Assembly: GCA_000004985.1 (NCBI GenBank)
Contig: GG738954.1
Strand: one strand, 5' to 3'
Length of the DNA stretch: 21,721 nucleotides
Source: Naegleria gruberi
Taxonomy: Eukaryota
Shown here: positions 4,401 to 21,721 of the stretch, piece by piece
Layout: every line of letters begins with the position of its first letter
Numbering within the stretch: position 1 is the first letter of the stretch
Made by a program: the position numbers and the translations under genes
Notes under the pieces: model-generated
Databases searched by the model: none
What the model was told of the DNA's origin: nothing
The model's input: the letters and a program-made list of their open reading frames with translations, nothing else

Positions 4401-5267
4401 NNNNNNNNNNNNNNNNNNNNNNNNNNNNNNNNNNNNNNNNNNNNNNNNNNNNNNNNNNNNNNNNNNNNNNNNNNNNNNNNNNNNNNNNNNNNNNNNNNNN
4501 NNNNNNNNNNNNNNNNNNNNNNNNNNNNNNNNNNNNNNNNNNNNNNNNNNNNNNNNNNNNNNNNNNNNNNNNNNNNNNNNNNNNNNNNNNNNNNNNNNNN
4601 NNNNNNNNNNNNNNNNNNNNNNNNNNNNNNNNNNNNNNNNNNNNNNNNNNNNNNNNNNNNNNNNNNNNNNNNNNNNNNNNNNNNNNNNNNNNNNNNNNNN
4701 NNNNNNNNNNNNNNNNNNNNNNNNNNNNNNNNNNNNNNNNNNNNNNNNNNNNNNNNNNNNNNNNNNNNNNNNNNNNNNNNNNNNNNNNNNNNNNNNNNNN
4801 NNNNNNNNNNNNNNNNNNNNNNNNNNNNNNNNNNNNNNNNNNNNNNNNNNNNNNNNNNNNNNNNNNNNNNNNNNNNNNNNNNNNNNNNNNNNNNNNNNNN
4901 NNNNNNNNNNNNNNNNNNNNNNNNNNNNNNNNNNNNNNNNNNNNNNNNNNNNNNNNNNNNNNNNNNNNNNNNNNNNNNNNNNNNNNNNNNNNNNNNNNNN
5001 NNNNNNNNNNNNNNNNNNNNNNNNNNNNNNNNNNNNNNNNNNNNNNNNNNNNNNNNNNNNNNNNNNNNNNNNNNNNNNNNNNNNNNNNNNNNNNNNNNNN
5101 NNNNNNNNNNNNNNNNNNNNNNNNNNNNNNNNNNNNNNNNNNNNNNNNNNNNNNNNNNNNNNNNNNNNNNNNNNNNNNNNNNNNNNNNNNNNNNNNNNNN
5201 NNNNNNNNNNNNNNNNNNNNNNNNNNNNNNNNNNNNNNNNNNNNNNNNNNNNNNNNNNNNNNNNNNN
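1457..5267. other. assembly gap (3811 N)
   Basis: Continuous run of n. All four ORFs in the track running through it (1378..5514 and 1382..5329 on the minus strand, 1391..5272 and 1407..6146 on the plus strand) are artefacts of translating N as X. Confidence 1.
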
Positions 5268-6146
5268 GTTGATTCACTCTCTGAGAATATTCCACAAATT
5301 GACTTGACCAACTTTTTAAATGAATACAAGAATGAGAAGGGAAGAGGTTTCGCCAGTAGAGGAAGAAGTTTAAAATCAATTTTGAGTGGAAATATTTCAG
5401 AAAAGGAATCTCAACGATTGGATAACTTGTTTGGTGTAGAGTATTTGGAGGATATTTATGATGAATTGAGAACTGGTGATGTCTTGTTGCATTCTGGAAA
5501 GGGAACTTTCTCAAAAGCTATTCAATTGGGATTTTCATCGACTTGGTCTCACTTGTCGATTATTATTAGAAATCCACCGAAAGAATTATTGGAATTGTAT
5601 AAGGTTCAAGTTGATGCTTCATCAAGATTTTCAACTGTTTTTGTTGCAGAATCTGAAACTGATACTGTGGACAATAAGGAAGGTGGTGGAATTCAATTAG
5701 TAGAATTGAGAAGGTGGTTTATGGATTATTTGGAAAGAGATCCAACTGATTTGTGTTGTTTGAGAAGATTGAACATTCCTTCAATGGATAATAGACCAAA
5801 GGATGAGAATATTGTGGATCAATTCCCAACACTTGTTGATTATTTGAAGATTTCCATTGATAAGAAATACGAAACTTCAAAATCTGAATTATTGAAATGT
5901 GTCATTAAGAGAAATACTCAATCCAATGATGCTAATGTATTCTGTTCTGAATTTGTGGCTGAATGCTATCTTAGAATGGGTTTATTGCCACAAAACACAA
6001 TTACCTGCAATTATGGACCTCGTGACTTTAGTCAGGAATCTAATTTGGTTAATACAGTTCTATTGAAAGGAGCCAACTTGACAAAAGAAAAGAGAATTCG
6101 AGTAAGAGAATGGGATGAAAAGAATGATTGGAATGTTCAACCATAA
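5268..6146 (+). CDS. 3' part of a gene (start codon is inside the gap) encoding a permuted papain-fold hydrolase domain of the YiiX/YaeF (C92) / NlpC-P60 superfamily type; putative cysteine amidase or peptidase.
   Basis: In-frame continuation of the real-sequence end of ORF 1407..6146, with no Met between the gap edge and the domain; stop TAA at 6144..6146. Motifs seen in the translation: GDVLLHSGKGTFSKAIQ...TWSHLSIIIRN (a His-containing strand) followed about 150 aa later by VFCSEFVAECYLRMGLLP (a nucleophile Cys in a C-S-E-[FL]-V context). The His-before-Cys order is characteristic of permuted NlpC/P60-like enzymes. Confidence 0.6.
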   Translation, partial: VDSLSENIPQIDLTNFLNEYKNEKGRGFASRGRSLKSILSGNISEKESQRLDNLFGVEYLEDIYDELRTGDVLLHSGKGTFSKAIQLGFSSTWSHLSIIIRNPPKELLELYKVQVDASSRFSTVFVAESETDTVDNKEGGGIQLVELRRWFMDYLERDPTDLCCLRRLNIPSMDNRPKDENIVDQFPTLVDYLKISIDKKYETSKSELLKCVIKRNTQSNDANVFCSEFVAECYLRMGLLPQNTITCNYGPRDFSQESNLVNTVLLKGANLTKEKRIRVREWDEKNDWNVQP

Positions 6147-6271: not shown

Positions 6272-7405
6272 CTAAAAATAATCATTTTGTTCTCTACTGT
6301 TTGAGTTAGAATCATCTTGTTCAAACAAAAAATCAAAGTCTGAATTAAGGGGAAAATTACCATTAGAACTTTCGTCTTGTTGATTGGGATCATATGCTAA
6401 TAGGTCAGTAATACATTCTTCGAACAATCTTTGAGGCGAAGAAATTAGATTTGGGAAGGAATTTGGACTTGGTGGTGCACTACTGGCAGCCATTTGAGAC
6501 ATGGCAGTTGGATACGTAGAATTCGGGATTCTTGGATCCATTAATGGGGTTGTTGGGATGAAATTTTGCATCACCGTATTGAAAGTTAGTGGTGTACTAG
6601 CAGATGGTGTCATTGGAACAAAGTTTTGCATTGGATTGACACTTGGTGGTGTAATAATATTAGGAACTAGTGGTGACAAAGAGTTTCCAGAAAGTGTTTG
6701 AGAATTATAAGATTGAATACTACCTGTATCATCACCAGAAGAGGAAGCTGCAACTACCTTCTTCTTTCTTGGTTTAGTCTTCTCACTGGTCTTTCTTTTA
6801 GTTCCAGATTTTGGCTCTTGATCTTCAATCATCGTTTCAGCAGAGGAACTAGAGGAAGCAGAAGCAGCAGCTCTCTTTCTAGGCTTTCTTTTCTTTCTGT
6901 TTGTTGTTACAGGTTCCAATCCACCATCAACATTAATTTCTTCTTCTTTTTCTTCTGACATTTCATCATCATCAGCAATCCATAGAGGTTCATCTTCACC
7001 ATTCAAATAGATGGCTTGAACCACTGATAAATTAGAATTATTCCTGACCACAGCCAGCCTTGTCTTCAACTTGATAACATGACCAAGGAGCACAATAATA
7101 ATATCACCCACTGCCTTTGTTGGGCACTTAACTTGACAAGCACCAAGTATCTTGGAAATTGTCATTTCAGCACGCATCTTGTTATCGCTAAAGTTGTTCT
7201 TCATCATGTACCAGCCTGATCTGTTTTGCAATGCATCAACCACAACCACTCTGATCTTGATGCCATCGAACAATTCCAATGAAACATGGGCCAATCCCTT
7301 CTTTCTAATAACAATTTTAAAAACAGGACGATGGGTAATTGGATCGTAAATAGTTTGTTCAAAGATTGGTTTATCAACGTTATTGACGTTATTGTTCTTG
7401 GTCAT
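6272..7405 (-). CDS. hypothetical nuclear protein, likely a transcription regulator: about 150-aa N-terminal globular domain of unrecognised family, an acidic stretch, two basic NLS-like clusters, an S/T/P-rich region with internal repeats, and an acidic/hydrophobic C-terminal tail.
   Basis: Intronless 377-aa ORF with ATG (complement of 7403..7405) and TAG stop (complement of 6272..6274). Features in the translation: basic clusters RKKRKPRKR and KRKTSEKTKPRKKK; a Ser run (AAASASSSSSA); a repeated motif MQNFVPMTPSASTP / MQNFIPTTPLMDP; and a C-terminal DFDFLFEQDD activation-domain-like tail. The plus-strand ORFs 6501..6701, 6698..6958 and 7152..7349 are antisense to this gene and are rejected. 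Confidence 0.7.
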   Translation of the reverse strand: MTKNNNVNNVDKPIFEQTIYDPITHRPVFKIVIRKKGLAHVSLELFDGIKIRVVVVDALQNRSGWYMMKNNFSDNKMRAEMTISKILGACQVKCPTKAVGDIIIVLLGHVIKLKTRLAVVRNNSNLSVVQAIYLNGEDEPLWIADDDEMSEEKEEEINVDGGLEPVTTNRKKRKPRKRAAASASSSSSAETMIEDQEPKSGTKRKTSEKTKPRKKKVVAASSSGDDTGSIQSYNSQTLSGNSLSPLVPNIITPPSVNPMQNFVPMTPSASTPLTFNTVMQNFIPTTPLMDPRIPNSTYPTAMSQMAASSAPPSPNSFPNLISSPQRLFEECITDLLAYDPNQQDESSNGNFPLNSDFDFLFEQDDSNSNSREQNDYF

Positions 7406-7676: not shown

Positions 7677-10405
7677 NNNNNNNNNNNNNNNNNNNNNNNN
7701 NNNNNNNNNNNNNNNNNNNNNNNNNNNNNNNNNNNNNNNNNNNNNNNNNNNNNNNNNNNNNNNNNNNNNNNNNNNNNNNNNNNNNNNNNNNNNNNNNNNN
7801 NNNNNNNNNNNNNNNNNNNNNNNNNNNNNNNNNNNNNNNNNNNNNNNNNNNNNNNNNNNNNNNNNNNNNNNNNNNNNNNNNNNNNNNNNNNNNNNNNNNN
7901 NNNNNNNNNNNNNNNNNNNNNNNNNNNNNNNNNNNNNNNNNNNNNNNNNNNNNNNNNNNNNNNNNNNNNNNNNNNNNNNNNNNNNNNNNNNNNNNNNNNN
8001 NNNNNNNNNNNNNNNNNNNNNNNNNNNNNNNNNNNNNNNNNNNNNNNNNNNNNNNNNNNNNNNNNNNNNNNNNNNNNNNNNNNNNNNNNNNNNNNNNNNN
8101 NNNNNNNNNNNNNNNNNNNNNNNNNNNNNNNNNNNNNNNNNNNNNNNNNNNNNNNNNNNNNNNNNNNNNNNNNNNNNNNNNNNNNNNNNNNNNNNNNNNN
8201 NNNNNNNNNNNNNNNNNNNNNNNNNNNNNNNNNNNNNNNNNNNNNNNNNNNNNNNNNNNNNNNNNNNNNNNNNNNNNNNNNNNNNNNNNNNNNNNNNNNN
8301 NNNNNNNNNNNNNNNNNNNNNNNNNNNNNNNNNNNNNNNNNNNNNNNNNNNNNNNNNNNNNNNNNNNNNNNNNNNNNNNNNNNNNNNNNNNNNNNNNNNN
8401 NNNNNNNNNNNNNNNNNNNNNNNNNNNNNNNNNNNNNNNNNNNNNNNNNNNNNNNNNNNNNNNNNNNNNNNNNNNNNNNNNNNNNNNNNNNNNNNNNNNN
8501 NNNNNNNNNNNNNNNNNNNNNNNNNNNNNNNNNNNNNNNNNNNNNNNNNNNNNNNNNNNNNNNNNNNNNNNNNNNNNNNNNNNNNNNNNNNNNNNNNNNN
8601 NNNNNNNNNNNNNNNNNNNNNNNNNNNNNNNNNNNNNNNNNNNNNNNNNNNNNNNNNNNNNNNNNNNNNNNNNNNNNNNNNNNNNNNNNNNNNNNNNNNN
8701 NNNNNNNNNNNNNNNNNNNNNNNNNNNNNNNNNNNNNNNNNNNNNNNNNNNNNNNNNNNNNNNNNNNNNNNNNNNNNNNNNNNNNNNNNNNNNNNNNNNN
8801 NNNNNNNNNNNNNNNNNNNNNNNNNNNNNNNNNNNNNNNNNNNNNNNNNNNNNNNNNNNNNNNNNNNNNNNNNNNNNNNNNNNNNNNNNNNNNNNNNNNN
8901 NNNNNNNNNNNNNNNNNNNNNNNNNNNNNNNNNNNNNNNNNNNNNNNNNNNNNNNNNNNNNNNNNNNNNNNNNNNNNNNNNNNNNNNNNNNNNNNNNNNN
9001 NNNNNNNNNNNNNNNNNNNNNNNNNNNNNNNNNNNNNNNNNNNNNNNNNNNNNNNNNNNNNNNNNNNNNNNNNNNNNNNNNNNNNNNNNNNNNNNNNNNN
9101 NNNNNNNNNNNNNNNNNNNNNNNNNNNNNNNNNNNNNNNNNNNNNNNNNNNNNNNNNNNNNNNNNNNNNNNNNNNNNNNNNNNNNNNNNNNNNNNNNNNN
9201 NNNNNNNNNNNNNNNNNNNNNNNNNNNNNNNNNNNNNNNNNNNNNNNNNNNNNNNNNNNNNNNNNNNNNNNNNNNNNNNNNNNNNNNNNNNNNNNNNNNN
9301 NNNNNNNNNNNNNNNNNNNNNNNNNNNNNNNNNNNNNNNNNNNNNNNNNNNNNNNNNNNNNNNNNNNNNNNNNNNNNNNNNNNNNNNNNNNNNNNNNNNN
9401 NNNNNNNNNNNNNNNNNNNNNNNNNNNNNNNNNNNNNNNNNNNNNNNNNNNNNNNNNNNNNNNNNNNNNNNNNNNNNNNNNNNNNNNNNNNNNNNNNNNN
9501 NNNNNNNNNNNNNNNNNNNNNNNNNNNNNNNNNNNNNNNNNNNNNNNNNNNNNNNNNNNNNNNNNNNNNNNNNNNNNNNNNNNNNNNNNNNNNNNNNNNN
9601 NNNNNNNNNNNNNNNNNNNNNNNNNNNNNNNNNNNNNNNNNNNNNNNNNNNNNNNNNNNNNNNNNNNNNNNNNNNNNNNNNNNNNNNNNNNNNNNNNNNN
9701 NNNNNNNNNNNNNNNNNNNNNNNNNNNNNNNNNNNNNNNNNNNNNNNNNNNNNNNNNNNNNNNNNNNNNNNNNNNNNNNNNNNNNNNNNNNNNNNNNNNN
9801 NNNNNNNNNNNNNNNNNNNNNNNNNNNNNNNNNNNNNNNNNNNNNNNNNNNNNNNNNNNNNNNNNNNNNNNNNNNNNNNNNNNNNNNNNNNNNNNNNNNN
9901 NNNNNNNNNNNNNNNNNNNNNNNNNNNNNNNNNNNNNNNNNNNNNNNNNNNNNNNNNNNNNNNNNNNNNNNNNNNNNNNNNNNNNNNNNNNNNNNNNNNN
10001 NNNNNNNNNNNNNNNNNNNNNNNNNNNNNNNNNNNNNNNNNNNNNNNNNNNNNNNNNNNNNNNNNNNNNNNNNNNNNNNNNNNNNNNNNNNNNNNNNNNN
10101 NNNNNNNNNNNNNNNNNNNNNNNNNNNNNNNNNNNNNNNNNNNNNNNNNNNNNNNNNNNNNNNNNNNNNNNNNNNNNNNNNNNNNNNNNNNNNNNNNNNN
10201 NNNNNNNNNNNNNNNNNNNNNNNNNNNNNNNNNNNNNNNNNNNNNNNNNNNNNNNNNNNNNNNNNNNNNNNNNNNNNNNNNNNNNNNNNNNNNNNNNNNN
10301 NNNNNNNNNNNNNNNNNNNNNNNNNNNNNNNNNNNNNNNNNNNNNNNNNNNNNNNNNNNNNNNNNNNNNNNNNNNNNNNNNNNNNNNNNNNNNNNNNNNN
10401 NNNNN
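7677..10405. other. assembly gap (2729 N)
   Basis: Continuous run of n. All three minus-strand gap ORFs are artefacts. Of the two plus-strand gap ORFs, only the real-sequence tail of 7644..10478 (10406 onward) is retained; 7618..10413 is an artefact. Confidence 1.
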
Positions 10406-10627
10406 GGAATTGATGAAGGAAATTGATGACGATCAAAATGGATTGATAACATTTGATGGTAAGTTTACACTGCTCTAGTACAATATCTTTGCTAACACCA
10501 TATTTAAAATTAACACATTGTTCCTATCTACCCTAACCAACATTCACATGAAATAACAACTTTCATCTCTTTTGAACAACATCAAACAGAATTCAAGGAA
10601 GCTATGGCTGGTTGGATGCTCCAATAA
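10406..10627 (+). CDS. 3' end of an EF-hand calcium-binding protein gene (calmodulin/centrin-like superfamily). Exons 10406..10458 and 10590..10627; the 5' part is in the gap. Deduced C-terminus: ELMKEIDDDQNGLITFDEFKEAMAGWMLQ*.
   Basis: After the gap, the open frame encodes EIDDDQNGLITFDG. This matches the EF-hand loop consensus D-x-D-x-[DN]-G-x-I-x-x-x-E except that position 12 is interrupted by GTAAGT at 10459. Splicing to the acceptor ...tcaaacAG|aa at 10588/10590 builds the codon G+AA = Glu, giving DDDQNGLITFDEF, a canonical loop plus exiting helix. The frame then runs 11 more codons to TAA at 10625..10627. Confidence 0.5.
10459..10589 (+). other. spliceosomal intron (131 nt, GTAAGT...AACAG), phase 1, splitting the invariant Glu codon of an EF-hand loop
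   Basis: GGTAAGT donor at 10458..10464, a ctaacac branch-point-like motif at about 10493..10499, and an AG at 10588..10589. This acceptor is the only one that restores an EF-hand-compatible residue; the alternative AG at 10477..10478 gives V-Q-Y-L-C-stop. Confidence 0.45.
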
Positions 10628-11331
10628 ATTTTTTAAAAATCTTTTATTTTGGCGCTCTTGAAATTTACTGTTCTTTCAATATTGTGTGATGATTTGTTCT
10701 TTTGCTTCGGAATTACAAGACAGCAACAAATTTGTTGGGATTGATCAAAATCGTTACTTTCCACAATTTATCTTTTGAAAAAAATTTAAAGTTTTCAATA
10801 TTTATTTAAATATTAAAAAAATATAACAATGAAGGAGGCAAGTGAAGAAGAGACTGTTCTTTGTGAACATGATCTCGATTATAATTGATTAGCAGTATTA
10901 GTATTATTCATGATCAAATGTAACAAAAATAGTTCATATGAACGACGGAAGGCTCTAATTTCTGCATGATTTGTTTTAAAAGCAATCAAACTATGATGAT
11001 GTTTATCAAAGTAGACATTTTGATAAATATTAGGCGTGCCAAGAACATTTGGATAGATTCGATCAACAATCTTCATCGTGATTCGAATTACTTTTGTAGT
11101 TATTACATTAAGGAATCATCGCTTTAGTATTTCAATCTCACTGAATGTCTTTAAAGTACTAAAACCAAAAACATCATCACTTCTCATATCTACTTGGATT
11201 GGCCGAAGTTTGGAAATATTACATGTTTCATACAACACATGTGGTTCACATCTTCTCCTGGCAAAACCTATCAAAAACTACAATGCCAATGCTGTTGGCA
11301 TGAATATAATTTATTCAACAACAAGAAAAGA

Positions 11332-14300
11332 ATGGAATCAACATTAGGCAGAAGATCATCTATTTCCACCTCTTCATCAGATGGTGGTTCTTCAATAACT
11401 TCTGCCTCTTTTGCCAGCTCCTTATTCAAAACCTTTAATGAATATCTATCAATGATGTATTTATGTAGCAAGATGAGGATGAACACCCTCACAAGGTTTA
11501 GCAACAGTAAAGGCAGCTATGTAGAAGGTTTGCCTGTAACAGTCCCTTGGAAGATACGACTGGCTAGATTGGCTATATCGTTATGGTTTTTATACATGTT
11601 GTGGATTGGAATTTGGTTACCTGCATTGACTTCTCATCAGGAGTATTCTAGTATACTTTCATCTAATAGTACCATAAATAATGAATATAATACTTCACCG
11701 TTTGGATTTGAAGGAGGATGGGTATTTAGAGTATTGAACTATCCACTCACTTTATCAACAGATGCCATTCCTTATGAGGGAATAATTGCACTTTCTGTCA
11801 TATTTACATTGATTTCATTGGTGAATATTATCTTGATGATTATTGGAATGAAGAAGAGATGTGAAGGAATTTACAAAATATTTGACAAGGTTGGGATGTA
11901 TTGTTCATTAGTAGTATCGTTTATTGGACCAGTTGCCTTATTTATTATGAGCAGTTTTGTTGATTGTAATCCAAATATTCAAATCAATGTCGAAGATCAG
12001 ACAGCAAGTGTTTCTGGATTGTCAAGATTTCCATCAGTTCAATGTTATTCTAAAACAAATACTATTTTAATTGTCATGAGTTTGATTGGAATGATGATTA
12101 CATTTGTGAGTTGGAGTTTCTCTGTGTTTTTATTGCCAATCAATACACCCAATGTTGGAATTCCTTTTGTGACGAAGGATAACTTTATATTGGCACCAAC
12201 TATTTGCACGATAGGATTCGAATTGTTAATCATATTCTTGATTCCACCGAATTACATGATGGGGAGAGCGATAGTTCATCTCATTTTGAGCATTTATCAA
12301 CATTCCACTCATCATTTACAGTTTACCATTTTATCATCGAATGATGAATTCACTCTATTTTGGAGTTGTTTGTGCAAGATTTGGAGTTAGTATTGGATTT
12401 TTGATTAGTTCATTGGTCAATTTAAATCTTTTGAGTGATTTGGGACTTGGAATGATGGGATTGAGTATTGGATTGGGAATTCTATTTTTCATTCTTGCTT
12501 TTACTGCTTTGGAAATTTACACAAGGTTGTGCTGCAGGCGAATTAGAAACATCTTTTCAAGAAAGATATCAGAATCCACAATCACTAACAGCAAGCAAGA
12601 CATCAACCTTTACTCAATAGTAGAAAAGGAAGCTCTTTCAATCTTTACTCTTTGTGAGCATGTTTCATCCAGAAGTTTGACTCTATTCTTGCAATCTACT
12701 GTTTGCCTAAAAGAACAAAACGGGTATAAGGAGGATGATGAATATATAGCACTGGACGATAAGTTGTTGGCAATATCCTTTGTCAAGTCTATTTCGCAAC
12801 AAAAATCTTTCGTCAATGCAGACATGTTGATAATTTCCGGAATGCTTATTAACTTTAATAGCAAAGAGGACAACAAGTATCAATTCGCCAGTTATCTTCT
12901 AGCAAAAGCATACAAACGAACCTCCAACACTATCAAGAAGTTAATCGTTTTAGAAAAACAAAAAGAAATTGAGATTGATTTGAATGAAGTGACCAAAACA
13001 AATATTGAAGTCAGAAATGCAATCACAGAGGTGGCTAAAAAGTTGGAAGAATTACGTATTGTTCATAGATCATTCTGGAAGGAAATGCTTAATGAAATGC
13101 CAAACGAAACCAAACTTTTACAAATTAATAGTAAGGCAACCGTATTATCCAAATTTTGTGAAAAATCCTTTTCCAACTTGATGAAGTCTCATAATCATGA
13201 CAAGACAGTAATCAGATTCTATGCAAAATATGTGGAGGAATTCAAGTTTGATAAGGAATTGTCGAATTCATTGTTTGAAGAAGCTAACCAGTTGGAAGAC
13301 GAAGAATCCAGATCAAGAAAGTATTCAATAATGAAATTACAACCAAATGAAACAAAGAAATTCAAAAATAAGGTAGCTCCATCATCTCCAAATTTAATGG
13401 ATGATATGAGTGTTACTGGAAGAGAAACCATGTTCGATTCTATGGGATCGCTCAGCATGAAAAAATTCTCTAATCAGCCAACTAACAATCCATTAAATGA
13501 GACAGATTTTGAAGGAGTAGAAAATGAAGGTATTGACAAGAAGGAATCATTTTTCAGAGCTGCCATCAATACTCCATTTCAATCAAAGTTGAAAATATCC
13601 ATCTTCCTTGGCCTTTCAGTGCTATTACATATTTGTATGATTGCAATATTTGTGCTAAGTATGGTATTTAGTGAAAAAGTTGTTTCTACTCCTCTTGTAT
13701 TGCAGAGTTGCATTACAGGCTCAACACCTGGCGCCTTGTTGAGATTTACGAGAATGAATCAAATTTTGACTGAGGTTTACGCAAATGAAGGACAACCTTG
13801 GTTACAGAACTCTACCAGGTATTACGAAATTAATAACTTTTTGAAAAATTACAAGAATAGATATTTGGAGCATAAGGGGTATTTGGAAACATTAATTTCC
13901 AATTCACAATCAGGAAAGTTTACAAGTAACATGTATACTGACTTTACAGAGAGAGCAAGTCCAATTTTAATTCCAATTTCAACAACAGACCCTAAATCTA
14001 TTGAATTTGTAAATACCTTCTCAAAGAATGTTTCAATGAGTGAAGTTTCTCAAGAATTCTTGCATCATGTTGAACAATTTTTGAACTTTGGAGAAAAGCA
14101 ATACAATGAAACAACAAAAAGTTACAGTTTCATGTATGTCTACTTGAATAGAAGATATTTAGCCGATAATTATCTCCAATTCTGTAGATCATTCCAGGAG
14201 AGCGAAAGAGCTAGTACTTTTGAACTGAATATCATACTCTCGAGCTATATTTTTGCTTCTTCTTCCGTAATGACGATGATTTACGTTATTTTCATTTTGA

Positions 14301-14887
14301 TTTCAAGGAGTGAGATGACTTGGTTCAGTAAGATCACATCTCTTTACAAGAAAATTCCAAAAGATTTTGTTGGAATAATTTATCACAAATTGGAAGAAAA
14401 GACAAAAGATGATGCCAAACATTTGAAGAAAAATCCTCTCTTGCAACCAAAAAATTTTACTTTAATACTGGCTATTTTGATAGTTGTAATATTCATGTTG
14501 TCTTCTGGTTTGATTTATTATGAAATTTCAATGAATATTTCAACTGCATCATCTGCCATTTACAATGTTGATTTGATGAGCGTCTTTTTGAGAACAGTTC
14601 ATAGAGTTACTATTAGATTAAATGAATTCTTCATTTATCTTACCCTGCCTTCTGGAAAATTCATTAACAGTCCATATTTAGTTTCGAATAATTCACAATT
14701 GCAAACAATGAAAACAGAAATCAGACAATTCATTGATTTGACTGCAACCATTTATGATCAGGTTATTTATGGCCAAGATGGAGTTACTTCTTCTCTTGTT
14801 GGGCAATATTCTGAAATTGACAAGATGATAACAGGTCAGTCCACATGCAGCAATTCCACAATTGATTACGAAATTAGCAATAATGGA
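11332..14887 (+). pseudogene. copy 1 of the giant membrane-sensor adenylyl-cyclase paralog family (8-TM N-terminal block, coiled coil, TM-bracketed loops). A +1 frameshift (extra g at about 12294) splits the reading frame: 11332..12390 in frame 1, then 12341..14887 in frame 2. The 3' end (PAS and cyclase) is missing at the 14888..15050 gap. Either a pseudogene or a sequencing error.
   Basis: The ATG at 11332 sits in an aaaag-aATGGA context like the copy-3 start. The N-terminal TM block from 11693 onward is about 93-95% identical at nucleotide level to copy 3 (20137 onward). At 12281..12300, copy 1 reads catctcattttgaGcatttatc where copy 3 reads catctcattttgacatttatc; one extra base shifts the frame and gives a stop at 12388..12390. 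The downstream frame (12341..14887) is collinear with copy 2 (15058..17589). The frame-1 ORF extension back to 11194 is not conserved in copy 3 and is taken to be 5' UTR. Confidence 0.6.
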
Positions 14888-15050
14888 NNNNNNNNNNNNN
14901 NNNNNNNNNNNNNNNNNNNNNNNNNNNNNNNNNNNNNNNNNNNNNNNNNNNNNNNNNNNNNNNNNNNNNNNNNNNNNNNNNNNNNNNNNNNNNNNNNNNN
15001 NNNNNNNNNNNNNNNNNNNNNNNNNNNNNNNNNNNNNNNNNNNNNNNNNN
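14888..15050. other. assembly gap (163 N) joining non-collinear parts of two paralogs
   Basis: Upstream of the gap, copy 1 ends at the position equivalent to copy 2 nt 17589 (the ...IDYEISNNG loop). Downstream, sequence resumes at the position equivalent to copy 1 nt 12338 / copy 3 nt 20778 (the ...YHRMMNSLYF junction). About 1.6 kb of copy 1 (its 3' part) plus an intergenic region plus about 1.1 kb of copy 2 (its 5' part) are unaccounted for. Confidence 1.
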
Positions 15051-18000
15051 TCATCGAATGATGAATTCACTCTATTTTGGAATTGTTTGTGCAAGATTTG
15101 GAGTGAGTATTGGATTTTTGATTAGCTCATTAGTCAATTTAAATCTTTTGAGTGATTTGGGTCTTGGAATGATGGGATTGAGTATTGGATTGGGAATTCT
15201 ATTTTTCATTCTTGCTTTTACTGCTTTGGAAATTTACACACTCGTAGTTTGCAGACAAATAAGAAATATTTTCAAAACCAAGATTAGTGCCTGTGAAATA
15301 AATGAGAGCAGAGCAGATTTATCACTTTACAACATTATTGAAAGAGAGGCAGTTTCCATTTTCATTGTTTGTGAACAATTATCTCTAAGACACTTGATGT
15401 TGTTTTTACAATTTTCAATTGGGCAAAATGTGAAACATCACTCCCCCGATCATTACGGTGTGACTATTGTCAGTGATCCATTAATGGCTATTGCTTTTGT
15501 GAAATCCATTTCTCAGCAGAAATCCTTCCTTAATACTGAAATGTTGCTCATTTCAAGTGTTTTGGTCAATTACATTTGGCAAGATGATCACAGATCTCAA
15601 TTTGCAAATTATCTACTGGCAAAGGCTCTTAAACATTGTCATCAAACGTTAAAGAGAGTTCTTATCACTGAAAAACAAAAAGAAATTGAAATTACACTTA
15701 ACGAGCTAACCAAGACAAATATGGAAGTAAGAAACACAATTACAGAATTAGAAATTACCCTTGCTGAGCTTCGAATTGTTCATAAATCATTCTGGAAGGA
15801 AATGTTGAACGATATTCCAAACGAAACCAAACTTTCACAAATTAATAGCAGAGCTTCTGTCCTAACACTATTCTGTGACCAGAATTTCCTCAATCTTACC
15901 AAAGCTCACAGTCATGATAAGACAGTGATTCGTTTTTATGCATCCTACCTTGAGGAATTCAAATTCGATAAGGAACTATCTACTTCATTGTTTGAAGAAG
16001 CTGCTGCAATGGAAGAAGAAGAATCGAGATCAAAGAATGTCAATCATCACAATCCACAATCATATTACGAAGCAAAGAAATTCAAGAATAAGATTGTGCC
16101 CTCATCCAATGTGGAAATGTCCACCAATAATGAAGATATTAGTACTGAAAGAGATGAAAGTGGTTCAGCCCTAAATGGAAAAAGTCAATTCAATGGGAAT
16201 GAGATGGATTTCGAAGGTGTCGAAAATCAAGGAATTGACAAGAAGGAAACCTTCTTCAGAACTGCCATCAATGCTCCATTCCAATCCAAACTGAGAATCT
16301 CGATCTTTCTATTCTTGTCAGTTTTGATGCATGTCTTGTTAATTGTCATTTTCATTCTGAGTATTGTTTATAATGAGAGAGTTGTTTCTACTCCTCTTGT
16401 ATTGCAGAGTTGCATTCCTGGTTCAACACCTGGTGCATTACTAAGAGTTGCAAGAATGAATCAAATTTTGACTGAGGTTTACGCAAATGAAGGACAATCA
16501 TGGTTAAAGAACTCGAGTAGAATGTATGAATTGAATTATTTCACATCAACCTTCAGAAATCGATATTTGGAGCATAAGGGGTATTTGGAAACATTAATTT
16601 CCAATTCACAATCAGGTAAATTTACAAGTAACATGTATAATGACTTTACAGAGAGAGCAAGTCCAATTTTAATTCCAATTTCAACAACAGATCCTAAATC
16701 GATTGAATTTGTAAACACCTTCTCAAAGAATGTTTCAATGAGTGAAGTTTCTCAAGAATTCTTGCATCATGTTGAGCAATTTTTGAACTTTGGAGAAAAG
16801 CAATACAATGAAACAACAAAGAGTTACAGTTTCATGTACATTTATTTAAATAGAAGATATTTAGCCGATAATTATCTCCAATTCTGCAAGTCATTCCAGG
16901 AAAGCGAAAGAGCCAACACTCACCAGTTGAATATTATTTTACTGGCCTATATTTTCACATCCTCCTCAGTAATGACGATGATTTACGTTATTTTCATTTT
17001 GATTTCAAGGAGTGAGATGACATGGTTCAGTAAGATCACATCTCTTTACAAGAAAATTCCAAAAGATTTTGTTGGAATAATTTATCACAAATTAGAAGAA
17101 AAGACAAAAGATGATGCCAAGCACTTGAAGAAAAATCCTCTCTTGCAACCAAAGGCCTTTTCTCTGATATTGGCACTTCTAATTGTGACAGTTTTCATGT
17201 TGTCTTCTGGTTTGATTTATTATGAAATTTCAATGAATATTTCAACTGCTTCATCTGCCATTTACAATGTTGATTTGCTGAGTGTATTTTTGAGAACAGT
17301 TCATAGAGTTACCATTAGACTGAATGAATTGTTTATTTACTTGTCATTGCCATCTGGAAAATTCATTAACAGTCCATATTTAGTTTCGAATAATTCACAA
17401 TTGCAAACAATGAAAACAGAAATCAGACAATTCATTGATTTGACAGCAACCATTTATGATCAGGTTATTTATGGACAAGATGGAATAACAACACCACTCG
17501 TTGGAAAATACTCCAAATTAGATAAGATTATTACTGGTCTATCGACTTGCACCAATTCCTCAATTGACTATAATTGGAAATCTAATGGAAACAAAATTAT
17601 TGGACAAAGTAATGAATTGTTAAAAGATTGTTATGGTCTTCAAAAGTACATGTCTACATTCACAATTCTTGCAGGACAAGTGAGTGAAAAGTTCTTCAAT
17701 CCTTCCTATGCTTCGACACAATCTGAAGAAGCATTCGCAGAATTGTTAACATTATTTAATATGTGTGATATGGTTTATGACAAGTTTAGAGATTTTCTCA
17801 CAACATTGGTCAGTTTGACATCTGTTCCTTCCATTACAATTTCAATTGTCTTGATTTTCGGTATAACTTCAATGCTCATATTACAATATATGATTTTCAT
17901 CAGTTTCCAAACCTATGATCACGAAATAACCAATATGAAAGCATTCTTGAATTATCTGTCCACAGAATTCATAGAATCAAATGATGGACTCAAGAGTTTT

Positions 18001-19206
18001 GCCTTGTACAACTCTATTGGAACGAACTATTTGACTGGACGAAAGCTAAAACAATCCTCAGCTACAGATCAAGATTCTTTGAAGAAATTAATGAGTTCAA
18101 TGGTAGATGGTGCACTATTAGCAAACGAAAGTGGAGATATCATTCTTTTCAACGGACCAGCTCAGAACATGTTCGGAAAGTCAATTTCTGATGTTCTGGG
18201 AACAAACTTTATGCATTTATTTGATGAGCACTCTGGTGAAAAGTTGTCCAACATTTTGAAAACAATCAAGAGTGAAATTGATGAAAATGTCAAACATGGA
18301 GATGTTATTGAATTGGAATGTGTTAGAAAGAATTCCACAAAGTTTCCAGCCATGGTTACTATCTTTGTTTCGAGAATTTCTGGCAGCTCTTACAAGGGAA
18401 AGAGTAACTCAATGGTTGTTTCATGCTTTATGAGAGATATCACTCCAGAGAAGAAGCAAAATTCACTTCTAGCAGAGGAGAAGAAAAATTCAGAAAATTT
18501 ATTGAGAAACATCTTGCCAGATGCTGTTGCAAGCAAGTTGAAATCAGGTGAGACATTTATTGCTGAGAGATTTAGTGATATTACTTGTTTCTTTAGTGAT
18601 ATGGTTGGTTTTACGAAAATGTCAAGTGGAATGAATCCAAGTGAATTGGTTTTGATGTTGTCATCAATTGTGAATGGATTTGATGATTTGACAGATGTTT
18701 ATTCATTGGAAAAGATCAAGACAATTGGTGATGCTTATTTTTGTGTTGGAGGTTTACATAATAATCCACAATCTGATCATCCTGAAAGAACATTGAGATT
18801 TGCAATTGATACATTTCAAGTGATTAGAAATTATAATATTGAACATCCTCAAAATCAATTGAATATTCGAGTTGGAATCAATACAGGATCAGTTGTTGCT
18901 GGTGTAATTGGAAAGAAGAAGTTTGCCTATGATTTATGGGGTGATACCATCAATACTGCTTCTCGAATGGAATCAACTTCAATGGCAGGAAGAATTCAAA
19001 TTTCCAGATCAACCTATCAGAGAGTCTATGATATTGGATTTGAATTTGAACAGAGAAGTGTTGAAGTGAAAGGAAAAGGTGTTTGTGAAACCTATTTATT
19101 GAAGGATAAACATCATGCAACGTCAATAATTCCAGTAACAGAATCACAAATTCTCAAGAAGGAACAAAGCAACGAAGAAAAATTAAGCGAACAATTAGAT
19201 CAATAA
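15051..19206 (+). CDS. copy 2: membrane-sensor adenylyl cyclase, 5'-truncated by the gap (open frame from 15052; first in-frame ATG at 15058; 1382 codons to TAA at 19204..19206). Order of parts: TM pair, coiled coil, TM, about 180-aa loop, TM, TM, about 190-aa loop, TM, PAS, class III cyclase domain.
   Basis: A single uninterrupted 4.1-kb ORF. Hydrophobic helices at about 15058..15250, 16290..16380, 16925..17010, 17160..17230 and 17800..17900. Heptad-rich segment EKQKEIEITLNELTKTNMEVRNTITELEITLAELRIVHKSF at about 15660..15790. C-terminal cyclase motifs: FFSDMVGFT (metal-binding Asp), KIKTIGDAYFCVGGL (second metal Asp plus specificity Lys), YDLWGDTINTASRMEST (specificity Asp, and the Asn/Arg transition-state pair). 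Confidence 0.85.
18080..18440 (+). other. PAS sensor domain within copy 2
   Basis: LKKLMSSMVDGALLANESGDIILFNGPAQNMFGKSISDVLGTNFMHLFDE...GDVIELECVRKNSTKFPAMVTIFVSR. The PAS-like core pattern is hydrophobic - N - x - A - x - x - hydrophobic - hydrophobic - G, followed by a beta-rich segment, placed between the last TM helix and the cyclase domain. Confidence 0.55.
18550..19100 (+). other. class III nucleotidyl cyclase catalytic domain (CYC/CHD), with residues predicting adenylyl cyclase specificity and homodimeric function
   Basis: Both metal-binding Asp residues are present (FSDMVGF and IGDAY). The base-specifying pair is Lys (KIKTIGD) and Asp (YDLWG), not the Glu/Cys pair of guanylyl cyclases. 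The Asn (TINTA) and Arg (SRME) transition-state residues are also present. Having every catalytic residue in one domain is typical of cyclases that act as homodimers. Confidence 0.9.
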
Positions 19207-19703: not shown

Positions 19704-21721
19704 ATGGAGCCATCATCGATAGGGGGAGGATCATCAGTTTCAGGCTCCACACAAACATCCAATGCCTCTTCAAGTTCCTTGTCTGGAAACATCTTTAGAA
19801 CAGTTAATGAATTTCTCACAAATTTGTACATGTCGGGAAAGTTGAGAATGAATGGTTTAACGAGACAATATACATCAATGAATAGCAGTTTGTTAGGTGC
19901 TGGTGTTTCTAGTGCTGGATTTTATGAGAGCTTTAATAGGAAACCTTCGTGGAATGTAAGGTTGTGCAGAGGTTTACTGTTTGTCTGGTTTTTGTATATC
20001 ATGTGGATTGGAGTGTGGTTACCTGGATTAACTTCTCATCAGGATTATTCACAAATATATTCTTCATCATCTTCTGTTTCATCATCAAGCAATTCAGGAA
20101 ATCAAACGAGTAGTATAGTAAATAATGAATTTAACACTTCACCGTTTGGATTTGAAGGAGGATGGGTATTTAGAGTATTGAATTATCCACTCACTTTATC
20201 AACAGATGCCATTCCTTATGAGGGAATAATTGCCTTGTCTGTCCTATTTACATTGATTTCATTGGTGAATATTATCTTGATGATTATTGGAATGAAGAAG
20301 AGATATGGAAATGTTTACAAATTCTTGGATAAAGTGGCGATGTGTTGGGGAATGATTGTATTATTCAGTGGACCAGTTGCCTTGTTTATTATGAGCAGTT
20401 TTATTGATTGTAATCCAAATATTAGGATTGAAATTGAGAATCAGACAGCAAGTGTTTCTGGATTGTCAAGATTTCCAACAGTTCAGTGCTATTCAGCTGA
20501 TAATATAGTATTACTAGTTCTGAGTTTGATTGGAATGATGATTACATTTGTGAGTTGGGGTTTCTCTGTGTTTTTATTGCCAATCAATACACCCAATGTT
20601 GGAATTCCTTTTGTGACGAAGGATAACTTTATATTGGCACCAACCATTTGCACGATAGGATTGGAATTGTTAATCATGTTCTTGATTCCACCGAATTTCA
20701 TGATGGGGAGAGCGATTGTTCATCTCATTTTGACATTTATCAACATTCCACTCATCATTTACAGTTTACCATTTTATCATCGAATGATGAATTCACTCTA
20801 TTTTGGAATTGTTTGTGCAAGATTTGGAGTGAGTATTGGAGTATTGATTAGCTCATTGGTCAATTTAAATCTGTTGAGTGATTTGGGACTTGGAATGATG
20901 GGATTGAGTATTGGATTGGGAATTCTATTTTTCATTCTTGCTTTTACTGCTTTGGAGATTTACACGCTCGTTGTTTGCAGACAAATAAGAAATATTTTCA
21001 AAACCAAGATTAGTGCCTGTGAAATAACTGAGAGCAGAGCAGATTTATCCCTGTACAACATTATTGAAAGAGAGGCAGTTTCCATTTTCATTGTTTGTGA
21101 ACAATTATCTCTGAGACACTTGATGTTGTTTTTACAATTTTCAATTGGGAAAAATGTGAAACATCACTCCCCCGATCATTACGGTGTGACTATTGTCAGT
21201 GATCCATTGATGGCTATTGCTTTTGTGAAATCCATTTCTCAGCAGAAATCCTTCCTTAATACTGAAATGTTGCTCATTTCAAGTGTTTTGGTCAACTACA
21301 TTTGGCAAGATGATCACAGATCTCAATTTGCAAATTATCTACTAGCAAAGGCTCTTAAACATTGTCATCAAACTTTAAAGAGAGTTCTTATCACTGAAAA
21401 ACAAAAAGAAATTGAAATTACACTCAACGAGCTAACCAAGACAAATATGGAAGTAAGAAACACAATTACAGAATTAGAAATAACCCTTGCTGAGCTTCGA
21501 ATTGTTCATAAATCATTCTGGAAGGAAATGTTGAACGATATTCCAAACGAAACCAAACTTTCACAAATTAATAGCAGAGCTTCTGTCCTAACACTATTCT
21601 GTGACCAGAATTTCCTCAATCTTACCAAAGCTCACAGTCACGATAAGACAGTGATACGTTTTTATGCGTCCTACCTTGAGGAATTCAAATTCGATAAGGA
21701 ACTATCTACTTCATTGTTTGA
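19704..21721 (+). CDS. copy 3: membrane-sensor adenylyl cyclase paralog, 5' complete (ATG 19704..19706), open to the window end (3' partial). N-terminal Ser-rich segment, then the 8-TM block, then the start of the coiled-coil region.
   Basis: Translated codon by codon from 19704 to 21721 in frame (positions divisible by 3) with no stop. It is missing from the supplied ORF track, apparently because that track requires a terminal stop. About 97-98% nucleotide identity to copy 2 over 20785..21721 versus 15058..15994 (about 22 mismatches in about 940 nt). N-terminal TM block 93-95% identical to copy 1. ORF 20648..20851 (+) and ORF 20489..20701 (-) are off-frame or antisense and are rejected. Confidence 0.8.
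   Translation, partial: MEPSSIGGGSSVSGSTQTSNASSSSLSGNIFRTVNEFLTNLYMSGKLRMNGLTRQYTSMNSSLLGAGVSSAGFYESFNRKPSWNVRLCRGLLFVWFLYIMWIGVWLPGLTSHQDYSQIYSSSSSVSSSSNSGNQTSSIVNNEFNTSPFGFEGGWVFRVLNYPLTLSTDAIPYEGIIALSVLFTLISLVNIILMIIGMKKRYGNVYKFLDKVAMCWGMIVLFSGPVALFIMSSFIDCNPNIRIEIENQTASVSGLSRFPTVQCYSADNIVLLVLSLIGMMITFVSWGFSVFLLPINTPNVGIPFVTKDNFILAPTICTIGLELLIMFLIPPNFMMGRAIVHLILTFINIPLIIYSLPFYHRMMNSLYFGIVCARFGVSIGVLISSLVNLNLLSDLGLGMMGLSIGLGILFFILAFTALEIYTLVVCRQIRNIFKTKISACEITESRADLSLYNIIEREAVSIFIVCEQLSLRHLMLFLQFSIGKNVKHHSPDHYGVTIVSDPLMAIAFVKSISQQKSFLNTEMLLISSVLVNYIWQDDHRSQFANYLLAKALKHCHQTLKRVLITEKQKEIEITLNELTKTNMEVRNTITELEITLAELRIVHKSFWKEMLNDIPNETKLSQINSRASVLTLFCDQNFLNLTKAHSHDKTVIRFYASYLEEFKFDKELSTSLF

What the first reader, a model, noticed from the sequence alone, without database searches (positions are those of the whole stretch)
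12281..12400. One-base frameshift splits copy 1 at the boundary between the N-terminal TM block and the sensor body
Copy 1 reads ...cattttgaGcatttatcaac... where copy 3 reads ...cattttgacatttatcaac.... The extra base at about 12294 puts the downstream sequence out of frame, with a stop at 12388..12390. The correct downstream frame reopens from 12341 with MMNSLYFG.... Flanking sequence is otherwise about 95% identical to copy 3, so the lesion is recent. Three readings are possible: a young pseudogene; a split gene expressing an 8-TM fragment and a separate sensor-cyclase fragment from the internal Met; or a sequencing error.
Basis: seen in the sequence. Interest (0 to 1): 0.5.

Follow-up and report, generated by a model that had tools for sequence, protein, structure and literature searches.

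The report
One-base frameshift in Naegleria cyclase paralog
One extra base interrupts an otherwise intact membrane cyclase gene in a gap-ridden Sanger draft scaffold of the amoeba Naegleria gruberi; it is most likely a sequencing or assembly error, or else a very young null allele, and it is ordinary either way.

Summary
Relative to copy 3, copy 1 carries one extra base (G at 12290, not about 12294). The upstream frame then stops at 12388-12390, and the downstream frame is open from 12290, with its first ATG at 12341.

The window is a complete 21,721-bp scaffold of the Naegleria gruberi NEG-M Sanger draft, and 31% of it is N. Deleting the one base gives 1,185 open codons. Copy 1 is an old paralog under purifying selection (dS about 0.95, dN/dS 0.13-0.18), and its four other nucleotide-level indels against copy 2 are all in frame. 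Any real lesion would therefore be younger than about 0.4-0.9% neutral divergence.

It lies in the middle of transmembrane helix 6 of an 8-helix block, not at a domain boundary, and helices 7 and 8 are encoded downstream. It also lies inside a roughly 430-bp gene-conversion tract shared by at least four paralogs. The deposited gene model is itself a chimera across an assembly gap.

- Consensus or assembly error: about 0.55.
- Real, very recent frameshift: about 0.37.
- Functional split gene: about 0.04.
- Intron or programmed frameshift: 0.02 or less.

Interest is low.

The parts
11332..12390 (+). Copy 1, upstream reading frame: ATG 11332 (MESTLGRR..., the same start as the paralog NAEGRDRAFT_71008) to the premature TAG at 12388-12390. 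The last 33 codons (12289-12387) are out-of-frame sequence. This stretch is not covered by any deposited gene model.
12290..12290 (+). The extra base: G relative to copy 3 (TTGA[G]CATTT). It can equally be described as an extra A at 12292 if the ancestral codon was AGC (Ser), the residue that the paralog P0001 has at this position.
12256..12325 (+). Codons of transmembrane helix 6 of the N-terminal 8-helix block. The lesion lies in its middle.
   Evidence: hydropathy scan; family alignment; AlphaFold2 helix 333-354 of copy 3, model pLDDT 81.2 and pTM 0.79
12094..12520 (+). Homogenised block (gene-conversion tract) shared with copies 2 and 3 and with P0001. It differs from copy 3 by 13 substitutions plus the indel in 427 nt. 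dS is 0.074, against 0.64-1.9 in the flanks. From 12274 to 12364 the indel is the only difference.
12341..14887 (+). Copy 1, downstream reading frame (open from 12290). It encodes TM7, TM8, the TPR_TmcB region and further TM segments, then runs into the assembly gap. The PAS and cyclase domains of copy 1 are not in the assembly. The deposited model EFC36034.1 starts at ATG 12344.
14888..15050 (.). Assembly gap (163 N). The next contig starts inside the conserved block (15051 corresponds to 12334). A full tandem arrangement would need about 3.2 kb here. The deposited 2,187-aa model splices across the gap and fuses copy 1 to copy 2.
15051..19206 (+). Copy 2. Its N-terminus is lost in the gap. 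It carries TPR_TmcB, PAS and a class III cyclase domain, and is an intact ORF to the stop at 19204-19206.
19704..21721 (+). Copy 3. It is intact across the junction (…HLILTFINIPLIIYSLPFYHRMMNSLYFG…) and runs off the end of the scaffold. The deposited partial model is EFC36035.1.

Best explanation
Copy 1 is a normal full-length member of the Naegleria family of membrane cyclases. The family architecture is an N-terminal 8-helix membrane block, a TmcB-type TPR region, further TM segments, a PAS domain and a class III adenylate/guanylate cyclase domain.

The extra base at 12290 is most likely not in the genome. I read it as a base-calling or consensus error in a thinly covered, repeat-rich scaffold of the 2010 Sanger draft of N. 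gruberi NEG-M. It sits in a roughly 430-bp stretch that is nearly identical in at least four paralogs, where reads from different copies are easiest to confuse.

Shown: the base is present in the deposited sequence; the gene is otherwise intact and constrained; the scaffold is of poor quality. Inferred: that the base is an artefact.
For: - Provenance. The window is a whole 21,721-bp scaffold of N. gruberi NEG-M (EFC36034.1 lies on a contig of exactly 21,721 nt). That genome is a Sanger draft (PMC9928731 Table 1).
- Coverage. 6,703 of 21,721 positions are N, in three gaps. If these are coverage gaps, Lander-Waterman gives about 1.2x coverage. About half of the assembled bases would then rest on one read, and one or two indel errors in the roughly 9.7 kb of coding sequence would be expected (my inference).
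- Misassembly nearby. The second contig starts inside the conserved block at 15051. The 163-N gap is about 3 kb too small for a tandem array. The deposited model fuses two copies across it.
- Intactness. Removing one base gives 1,185 open codons. The wrong frames carry about 99 stops each.
- Constraint. dN/dS is 0.18 against copy 2 (dS 0.95) and 0.13 in the unconverted part against copy 3. The four other indels against copy 2 are 3, 6, 6 and 18 nt.
- Age limit. With 5.5% of substitutions creating stops, plus indels, no second lesion implies under 0.4-0.9% neutral divergence since any loss of function.
- Relatives are in frame. Copy 3, and the closest relative of the copy 1 N-terminus (P0001, 292/294 identical over residues 1-294), both read through in frame. 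So do about 69 of 88 family representatives.
- Superstring pattern. Copy 1 reads A-G-C-A where copy 3 reads A-C-A (Thr) and P0001 has Ser. If the P0001 codon is AGC, copy 1 is the gap-free union of the two variants. That is the pattern a column-wise consensus makes from two read types.
Against: - No read or trace data could be examined, so the error is inferred, not shown.
- The inserted G is not in a homopolymer and not in a GC compression, the usual sites of Sanger indel errors.
- Copies 2 and 3 (about 6 kb of coding sequence in the same scaffold) show no frameshift, so the local error rate cannot be very high.
- The gaps may reflect repeat-induced assembly breaks rather than low coverage.
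- The codon for Ser320 of P0001 is unknown, because its DNA was not retrievable. The 'superstring' argument is therefore only a lead; a chance match has a probability of about 1 in 4.
- Tandem, redundant paralogs in a family of about 80-100 genes are exactly where young null alleles are expected.
Confidence: 0.55

Rival explanations
1. The extra base is real. On this reading it is a very recent +1 frameshift that has just inactivated copy 1, either as a nascent pseudogene or as a null allele on one haplotype. Translation would give a 352-aa product with five TM helices, half of TM6 and a 33-residue nonsense tail. The remaining 850+ codons would not be translated.
For: - The base is in the deposited sequence.
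- The site is not a typical Sanger error context (read directly from the sequence).
- The family is large and locally redundant. There are three tandem copies here plus P0001, 'at least 81 cyclases' in the genus (PMC9928731) and 88 representatives. Loss of one copy should therefore be tolerated.
- The annotators also could not read through: the deposited model starts at 12344.
- The rest of the coding sequence in the scaffold is clean.
Against: - There is only one lesion in 1,185 codons, dN/dS is 0.13-0.18, and all other indels are in frame. The event would have to be younger than about 0.4-0.9% neutral divergence, a narrow time window.
- The scaffold quality and the repeat context favour error.
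- No independent sequence carrying the frameshifted ORF exists in a 15-billion-protein collection, tried with 7 alternative starts. That collection apparently holds no independent NEG-M assembly, so this is weak evidence.
Confidence: 0.37
2. The lesion is real and the locus works as a split gene. A 5-TM N-terminal fragment and a separate TM7-TM8-TPR-PAS-cyclase protein, starting at Met 12341 or 12344, would be made from their own messages or by reinitiation. They might reassemble in the membrane.
For: - An ATG pair lies 51 nt after the lesion, in the right frame.
- A few family models in other loci begin near TM6 or TM7. P0029 (1,225 aa) and P0053 (1,061 aa) show that N-truncated forms are at least annotated.
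Against: - The break is inside a membrane helix of a confidently predicted compact bundle, not between domains.
- The Met pair replaces V/I-E in the conserved PF(Y/F)RR(V/I)ENS loop motif and is present in the intact copies 2 and 3 and in P0001, so it is not a dedicated start.
- The 51 nt between lesion and ATG is coding sequence identical to copy 3, which leaves no room for a promoter.
- Reinitiation after a 352-codon ORF is not expected under eukaryotic scanning (established knowledge).
- The arrangement is not conserved in any relative.
- The truncated models elsewhere start at scattered positions, as annotation artefacts do.
Confidence: 0.04
3. The frame is restored at the RNA or translation level, either by a small spliceosomal intron that removes a segment of length 3n+1 or by programmed +1 ribosomal frameshifting between 12290 and 12387.
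For: - 52 formal GT..AG pairs of length 3n+1 would give an open frame, for example 12225-12321 (97 nt, ending in tttacAG).
- The two frames overlap over 33 codons, so a +1 shift is geometrically possible (read directly).
Against: - All candidate donors are poor (GTTAAT, GTTCAT, GTTTAC, GTTGTT, GTGCAA). A genuine intron in the same window uses GTAAGT...ACAG (10459-10589; the spliced peptide hits EF-hand_1 at 31.2 bits).
- Every candidate would delete conserved TM codons that are translated in copy 3, P0001 and the family.
- No known +1 shift motif is present, and the frameshift is absent from all relatives, whereas programmed sites are conserved.
- A shift at the stop would leave 33 wrong residues in TM6-TM7.
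Confidence: 0.02

Closest known systems
Naegleria membrane adenylate/guanylate cyclases with a TmcB-type TPR region and a PAS domain (e.g. N. gruberi NAEGRDRAFT_71008 / XP_002674019.1, 1,740 aa; N. lovaniensis C9374_003576; N. fowleri FDP41_011611)
   Same: Copy 1 has the same N-terminal 8-helix block and the same TPR_TmcB region (53.6 bits). Copies 2 and 3 and P0001 add PAS and Guanylate_cyc domains. The copy 1 N-terminus is 292/294 identical to that of NAEGRDRAFT_71008. Family members in three Naegleria species align across the lesion site in a single stretch.
   Different: As deposited, copy 1 is interrupted by one base in TM6, and its PAS and cyclase end is missing in an assembly gap.
Single-lesion frameshifts and split or fused gene models in draft eukaryotic assemblies
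   Same: The features are one isolated indel in an otherwise constrained ORF, a low-coverage scaffold, contig breaks at paralog repeats, and a gene model that begins at the first ATG after the lesion and bridges a gap. In the same family, N. fowleri FDP41_006142 (824 aa) plus FDP41_006143 (808 aa) appear as one 1,651-aa protein (CAG4713405.1) in another annotation.
   Different: Reads were not available, so the artefact is not demonstrated here.
Young unitary pseudogenes or null alleles in tandem gene arrays
   Same: The setting is a tandem array with recent duplication (copy 2 versus copy 3: dS 0.10) and mosaic gene conversion, with a single disabling frameshift.
   Different: Established pseudogenes show several lesions and dN/dS near 1. 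Copy 1 shows one lesion and dN/dS of 0.13-0.18.
Dictyostelium TmcB/TmcC proteins (Pfam PF25474, TPR_TmcB)
   Same: They share the TPR_TmcB region.
   Different: Only that region is shared, according to Pfam. I did not test whether TmcB proteins have the same TM block or a cyclase domain.

Membership tests
Naegleria TM-block / TPR_TmcB / PAS / class III cyclase family | TPR_TmcB region (PF25474) downstream of the N-terminal TM block | tested here: met
   The copy 1 body scores 53.6 bits against a cut-off of 27. Copies 2 and 3 and P0001 also match.
Naegleria TM-block / TPR_TmcB / PAS / class III cyclase family | PAS domain plus Guanylate_cyc (PF00211) catalytic domain at the C-terminus | not testable with these tools
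   For copy 1 this part lies in the gap after 14887. The feature is met in copy 2 (192.4 bits) and in P0001 (191.6 bits).
Naegleria TM-block / TPR_TmcB / PAS / class III cyclase family | N-terminal 8-helix membrane block and downstream body encoded in one continuous reading frame | tested here: not met
   As deposited, copy 1 is broken at 12290. The feature is met once that one base is removed. It is met in copy 3, in P0001 and in about 69 of 88 representatives.
Established (old) pseudogene | Several disabling lesions and relaxed constraint (dN/dS near 1) | tested here: not met
   There is one lesion in 1,185 codons. dN/dS is 0.18 against copy 2 and 0.13 against copy 3 in the unconverted part. 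The other indels are 3, 6, 6 and 18 nt.
Young pseudogene / null allele | The lesion is present in the genome (independent reads) and translation of the downstream part is lost | not testable with these tools
   No reads, traces or independent assemblies of this locus were reachable.
Sequencing / assembly artefact | The lesion lies in sequence repeated among paralogs, in a low-quality part of the assembly | tested here: met
   The lesion sits in a 427-nt block about 97% identical among copies. The scaffold is 31% N. A contig breaks inside the same block at 15051, and the gap size is inconsistent with a tandem array. The genome is a Sanger draft.
Sequencing / assembly artefact | The extra base is absent from, or poorly supported in, the underlying reads | not testable with these tools
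Spliceosomal intron removing the lesion | Consensus GT donor and AG acceptor, length 3n+1, and a removed segment that is not coding in relatives | tested here: not met
   52 formal pairs exist, but none has a GTAAGT-like donor and all remove conserved TM codons. The local reference intron is 10459-10589, GTAAGT...ACAG.
Programmed +1 ribosomal frameshift | The shift site is conserved in relatives and has a recognisable slippery or hungry-codon motif | tested here: not met
   Copy 3, P0001 and the family are in frame at this site. No known motif appears in 12290-12390 (read directly).

The most novel reading that the evidence does not exclude
The extra base is real and the locus is expressed as two polypeptides: a 5-TM N-terminal fragment, and a TM7-TM8-TPR-PAS-cyclase protein initiated at Met 12341 or 12344. 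This would be a naturally split receptor cyclase caught just after fission. The N-truncated family models elsewhere (P0029, P0053) would then be older examples of the same route.
Probability: 0.04. Interest if true: 0.45.

Novelty: new member of a known kind. Interest (0 to 1): 0.1.

Why it matters
It matters little for biology. Either way this is one interrupted copy in a large, redundant, tandemly duplicated family of Naegleria receptor cyclases.

It does matter for annotation:
- The deposited model for this locus (NAEGRDRAFT_76300, 2,187 aa) is a chimera of two paralogs joined across an assembly gap.
- That model lacks the N-terminal membrane block. Family counts and domain architectures drawn from this scaffold are therefore unreliable.

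The surrounding pattern is the more interesting lead, and it is ordinary for tandem families. It consists of mosaic gene-conversion tracts plus a paralog (NAEGRDRAFT_71008) that combines the copy-1-type membrane block with the copy-2/3-type body.

Tried and rejected
1. Independent sequence of the locus. The look-up of encoding contigs found nothing on record for P0001, P0002, P0010, the frameshifted ORF and the neighbouring 377-aa gene. Exact look-up of the frameshifted ORF with 7 alternative starts, and of copy 2, found none in the collection. Three homology searches returned only the P0001/P0002 cluster as a close relative. The second search, a 340-aa junction query, returned nothing at all, not even P0001, so that tool's negatives are weak.

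2. Metagenome scans with a gapped DNA pattern across the lesion, and with the junction peptide, gave no relative.

3. DNA of P0001, needed to read its Ser320 codon, was not retrievable, so the 'superstring consensus artefact' idea stays untested.

4. Intron rescue was enumerated and rejected. +1 frameshifting was rejected on lack of conservation and lack of a motif.

5. Literature. No paper in the library mentions either locus tag or accession. The 2010 genome paper is not held, so coverage and heterozygosity figures could not be cited.

6. Fold searches of the TM block gave no meaningful PDB neighbour. They do not bear on the lesion.

7. I considered P0001 as a simple allele of 'copy 1 N-terminus + copy 2 body'. 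Its C-terminal tail is not encoded anywhere in the window, and it has private substitutions in the conserved block. The allele-versus-paralog question is left open.
Full report
**What the window is.** The window holds three runs of N: 1457-5267, 7677-10405 and 14888-15050. Together they make 6,703 of 21,721 positions. A protein search with the repaired copy 1 found one cluster of two Naegleria gruberi proteins. One of them, EFC36034.1 / XP_002668778.1 (NAEGRDRAFT_76300, 2,187 aa), lies on a contig of exactly 21,721 nt. Two further deposited models sit on the same record:
- EFC36035.1, a partial model of 649 aa that is 100% identical to copy 3.
- EFC36036.1, 377 aa, at 6272-7405 on the minus strand.

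The window is therefore a complete small scaffold of the N. gruberi NEG-M draft, which was sequenced by the Sanger method (PMC9928731 Table 1).

**The genes.** Three paralogs lie head to tail on the + strand.
- Copy 1 starts at ATG 11332 (MESTLGRR...) and runs into the gap at 14888.
- Copy 2 emerges from that gap at 15051 and ends at 19206.
- Copy 3 starts at ATG 19704 and runs off the scaffold end.

Pfam finds TPR_TmcB in all three. It finds PAS plus the class III cyclase catalytic domain in copy 2 and in the paralog P0001. Hydropathy gives eight TM segments in the first roughly 400 residues. An AlphaFold2 model of copy 3 residues 1-433, built on a 33-sequence family alignment, is confident (pLDDT 81.2, pTM 0.79). 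It shows the same helices.

A full HMMER scan of 1.84 billion representatives found 88 relatives (39 at E of 1e-30 or lower). Those whose source was looked up are N. gruberi, N. fowleri and N. lovaniensis proteins, plus unnamed proteins from ENA and Logan assemblies. Full-length members are mostly about 1,500-1,800 aa.

**Checking the observation.** The alignment of copy 1 with copy 3 shows a single gap column: TTGAGCATTT against TTGA-CATTT. By direct indexing the extra base is G at 12290, not about 12294. The upstream frame ends at TAG 12388-12390, and the downstream frame has ATG ATG at 12341. That frame is open from 12290 and is closed immediately upstream by TGA 12287-12289. Removing the base yields 1,185 uninterrupted codons. 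The two wrong frames of the same DNA have about 99 stops each.

**Where the lesion lies.** It is not at a domain boundary. In copy 1 numbering it follows residue 319, inside predicted TM6 (313-331). TM7 (340-358) and TM8 (366-384) are downstream. In the model it lies in the middle of helix 333-354 of copy 3, followed by helices 360-386 and 392-432.

In the family alignment the helix is conserved. It is followed by the motif PF(Y/F)RR(V/I)ENS, and the 'MM' of MMNSLYFG occupies the V/I-E positions of that motif. The upstream fragment would therefore carry five intact helices plus half of a sixth, then a 33-residue nonsense tail.

**How old the lesion could be.** Copy 1 is an old paralog, 78% identical in nucleotides to copies 2 and 3. 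Three results show long-standing purifying selection:
- Against copy 2, dS is 0.95 and dN/dS is 0.18.
- In the unconverted stretch against copy 3, dS is 1.9 and dN/dS is 0.13.
- The four other indels between the copy 1 and copy 2 bodies are 3, 6, 6 and 18 nt.

In this sequence 5.5% of point substitutions create stops. Allowing for an indel-to-substitution ratio of 0.05-0.2, the absence of any second lesion limits the time since loss of constraint. The 95% bound is 0.4-0.9% neutral divergence (the indel ratio is my assumption).

The block 12094-12520 has dS of 0.074 against copy 3, while the flanks have 0.64-1.9. Similar tracts occur at 11674-11853 and at four places in the body. These are gene-conversion tracts.

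**Assembly quality around the lesion.** Several features point to a weak assembly here.
- The contig after the 163-N gap begins inside the conserved block (15051 corresponds to 12334).
- For a real tandem array the gap would have to hold the last 1,617 nt of copy 1, about 497 nt of spacer and about 1,073 nt of the copy 2 N-terminus. That is about 3.2 kb (coordinates).
- The deposited model starts at 12344 and splices ...EIDKMIT to VNLNLLSDLG... across the gap, fusing two paralogs.
- The paralog P0001 (NAEGRDRAFT_71008, on a 508-kb scaffold) is a mosaic. Residues 1-294 match the copy 1 N-terminus at 292/294, and residues 415-1688 match copy 2 at about 99%. It reads HLILSFINIPLVIYSLPFYHRMMNSLYFG in frame.
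- The C-terminal tail of P0001 is not encoded in the window, so it is not simply the same locus.

If the three gaps are coverage gaps, 31% uncovered corresponds to about 1.2x coverage. About half of the assembled bases would then be single-read (my inference).

**A lead that I could not test.** Copy 1 reads A-G-C-A where copy 3 reads A-C-A (Thr) and P0001 has Ser. In its own upstream frame copy 1 also reads Ser (AGC). If the P0001 codon is AGC, copy 1 equals the gap-free union of TTGAGC-TTT and TTGA-CATTT. A column-wise consensus of two read types would produce exactly that. A chance match has a probability of about 1 in 4. The DNA of P0001 was not retrievable.

**Alternatives at the RNA or translation level.** 52 GT..AG pairs of length 3n+1 would formally restore the frame. 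Their donors are poor (GTTAAT, GTTCAT, GTTTAC and others), and all of them remove conserved TM codons. A genuine intron in the same window, 10459-10589 in an EF-hand gene, uses GTAAGT...ACAG, and the spliced peptide hits EF-hand_1 at 31.2 bits. Programmed +1 frameshifting lacks a motif and lacks conservation.

**Search for independent evidence.** No independent copy of this locus was reachable. Five exact-gene look-ups, one nine-sequence exact look-up, three homology searches and two metagenome scans found nothing beyond the deposited proteins. One of the homology searches missed even P0001, so these negatives are weak. No paper in the library mentions the loci.

**Verdict.** The sequence feature exists as deposited. 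The gene it interrupts looks alive.

| Reading | Probability |
|---|---|
| Consensus or assembly error | 0.55 |
| Real, very young frameshift (null allele or nascent pseudogene) | 0.37 |
| Functional split gene | 0.04 |
| Intron or programmed frameshift | 0.02 |

I weigh the narrow time window a real lesion would need against the poor state of the scaffold and the repeat context. Only reads or a copy-specific PCR can decide between the first two readings. Both are ordinary, so interest is low.

Noticed in passing
window 12344-19206, gap 14888-15050: The deposited model EFC36034.1 / NAEGRDRAFT_76300 (2,187 aa) starts at the second ATG after the lesion. It splices ...EIDKMIT|VNLNLLSDLG... across the 163-N gap, fusing the copy 1 body to the copy 2 body. 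A true tandem would need about 3.2 kb in that gap.
   Followed up: yes
P0001 (NAEGRDRAFT_71008, 508-kb scaffold) versus window 11332-12290 and 15058-19206: This paralog is a mosaic. Residues 1-294 match the copy 1 N-terminus at 292/294, and residues 415-1688 are about 99% identical to copy 2. The switch falls inside the conserved block. Its C-terminal tail is not encoded in the window. It could be an unequal-crossover or conversion hybrid, an allele, or a collapsed assembly.
   Followed up: partly
window 11674-11853, 12094-12520, 13855-14169, 14260-14439, 14485-14619, 14665-14754: Tracts of 93-99% nucleotide identity between copy 1 and copies 2/3 sit in a background of 50-75%. Inside 12094-12520 dS is 0.074, against 0.64-1.9 outside. 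This is mosaic gene conversion among tandem cyclase paralogs.
   Followed up: partly
window 15051-15995 versus 20777-21721: Copies 2 and 3 are 97.7% identical (dS 0.10, dN/dS 0.05). This is a much younger duplication or conversion than the split from copy 1.
   Followed up: partly
[not shown]
   Followed up: partly
window 10406-10628: This is the 3' end of an EF-hand gene emerging from the second gap. It has a 131-nt intron at 10459-10589 (GTAAGT...ACAG). The spliced peptide ELMKEIDDDQNGLITFDEFKEAMAGWMLQ hits EF-hand_1 at 31.2 bits.
   Followed up: yes
window 5268-6146 (+): This is the C-terminal part of an ORF emerging from the first gap. It has a borderline match to Peptidase_C92, the permuted papain-like YaeF/YiiX family (26.9 bits, cut-off 27).
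   Followed up: partly
window 6272-7405 (-): This is a 377-aa Ser/Lys-rich ORF, deposited as EFC36036.1 / NAEGRDRAFT_54609. It has no Pfam domain above cut-off.
   Followed up: partly
family members P0029 (N. gruberi EFC40474.1, 1,225 aa), P0053 (1,061 aa); N. fowleri FDP41_006142 and FDP41_006143 versus CAG4713405.1: Several family gene models start within or just after TM6/TM7. One N. fowleri gene is two adjacent models (824 + 808 aa) in one annotation and a single 1,651-aa protein in another. Split or truncated models are common in this family.
   Followed up: no
L001 (ENA metagenome assembly ERZ929261, contig k127_183807, 8,694 nt): A 1,736-aa family member in the same 90%-identity cluster as N. 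gruberi NAEGRDRAFT_72081 sits on a metagenome contig. A close relative of N. gruberi is therefore present in that sample.
   Followed up: no
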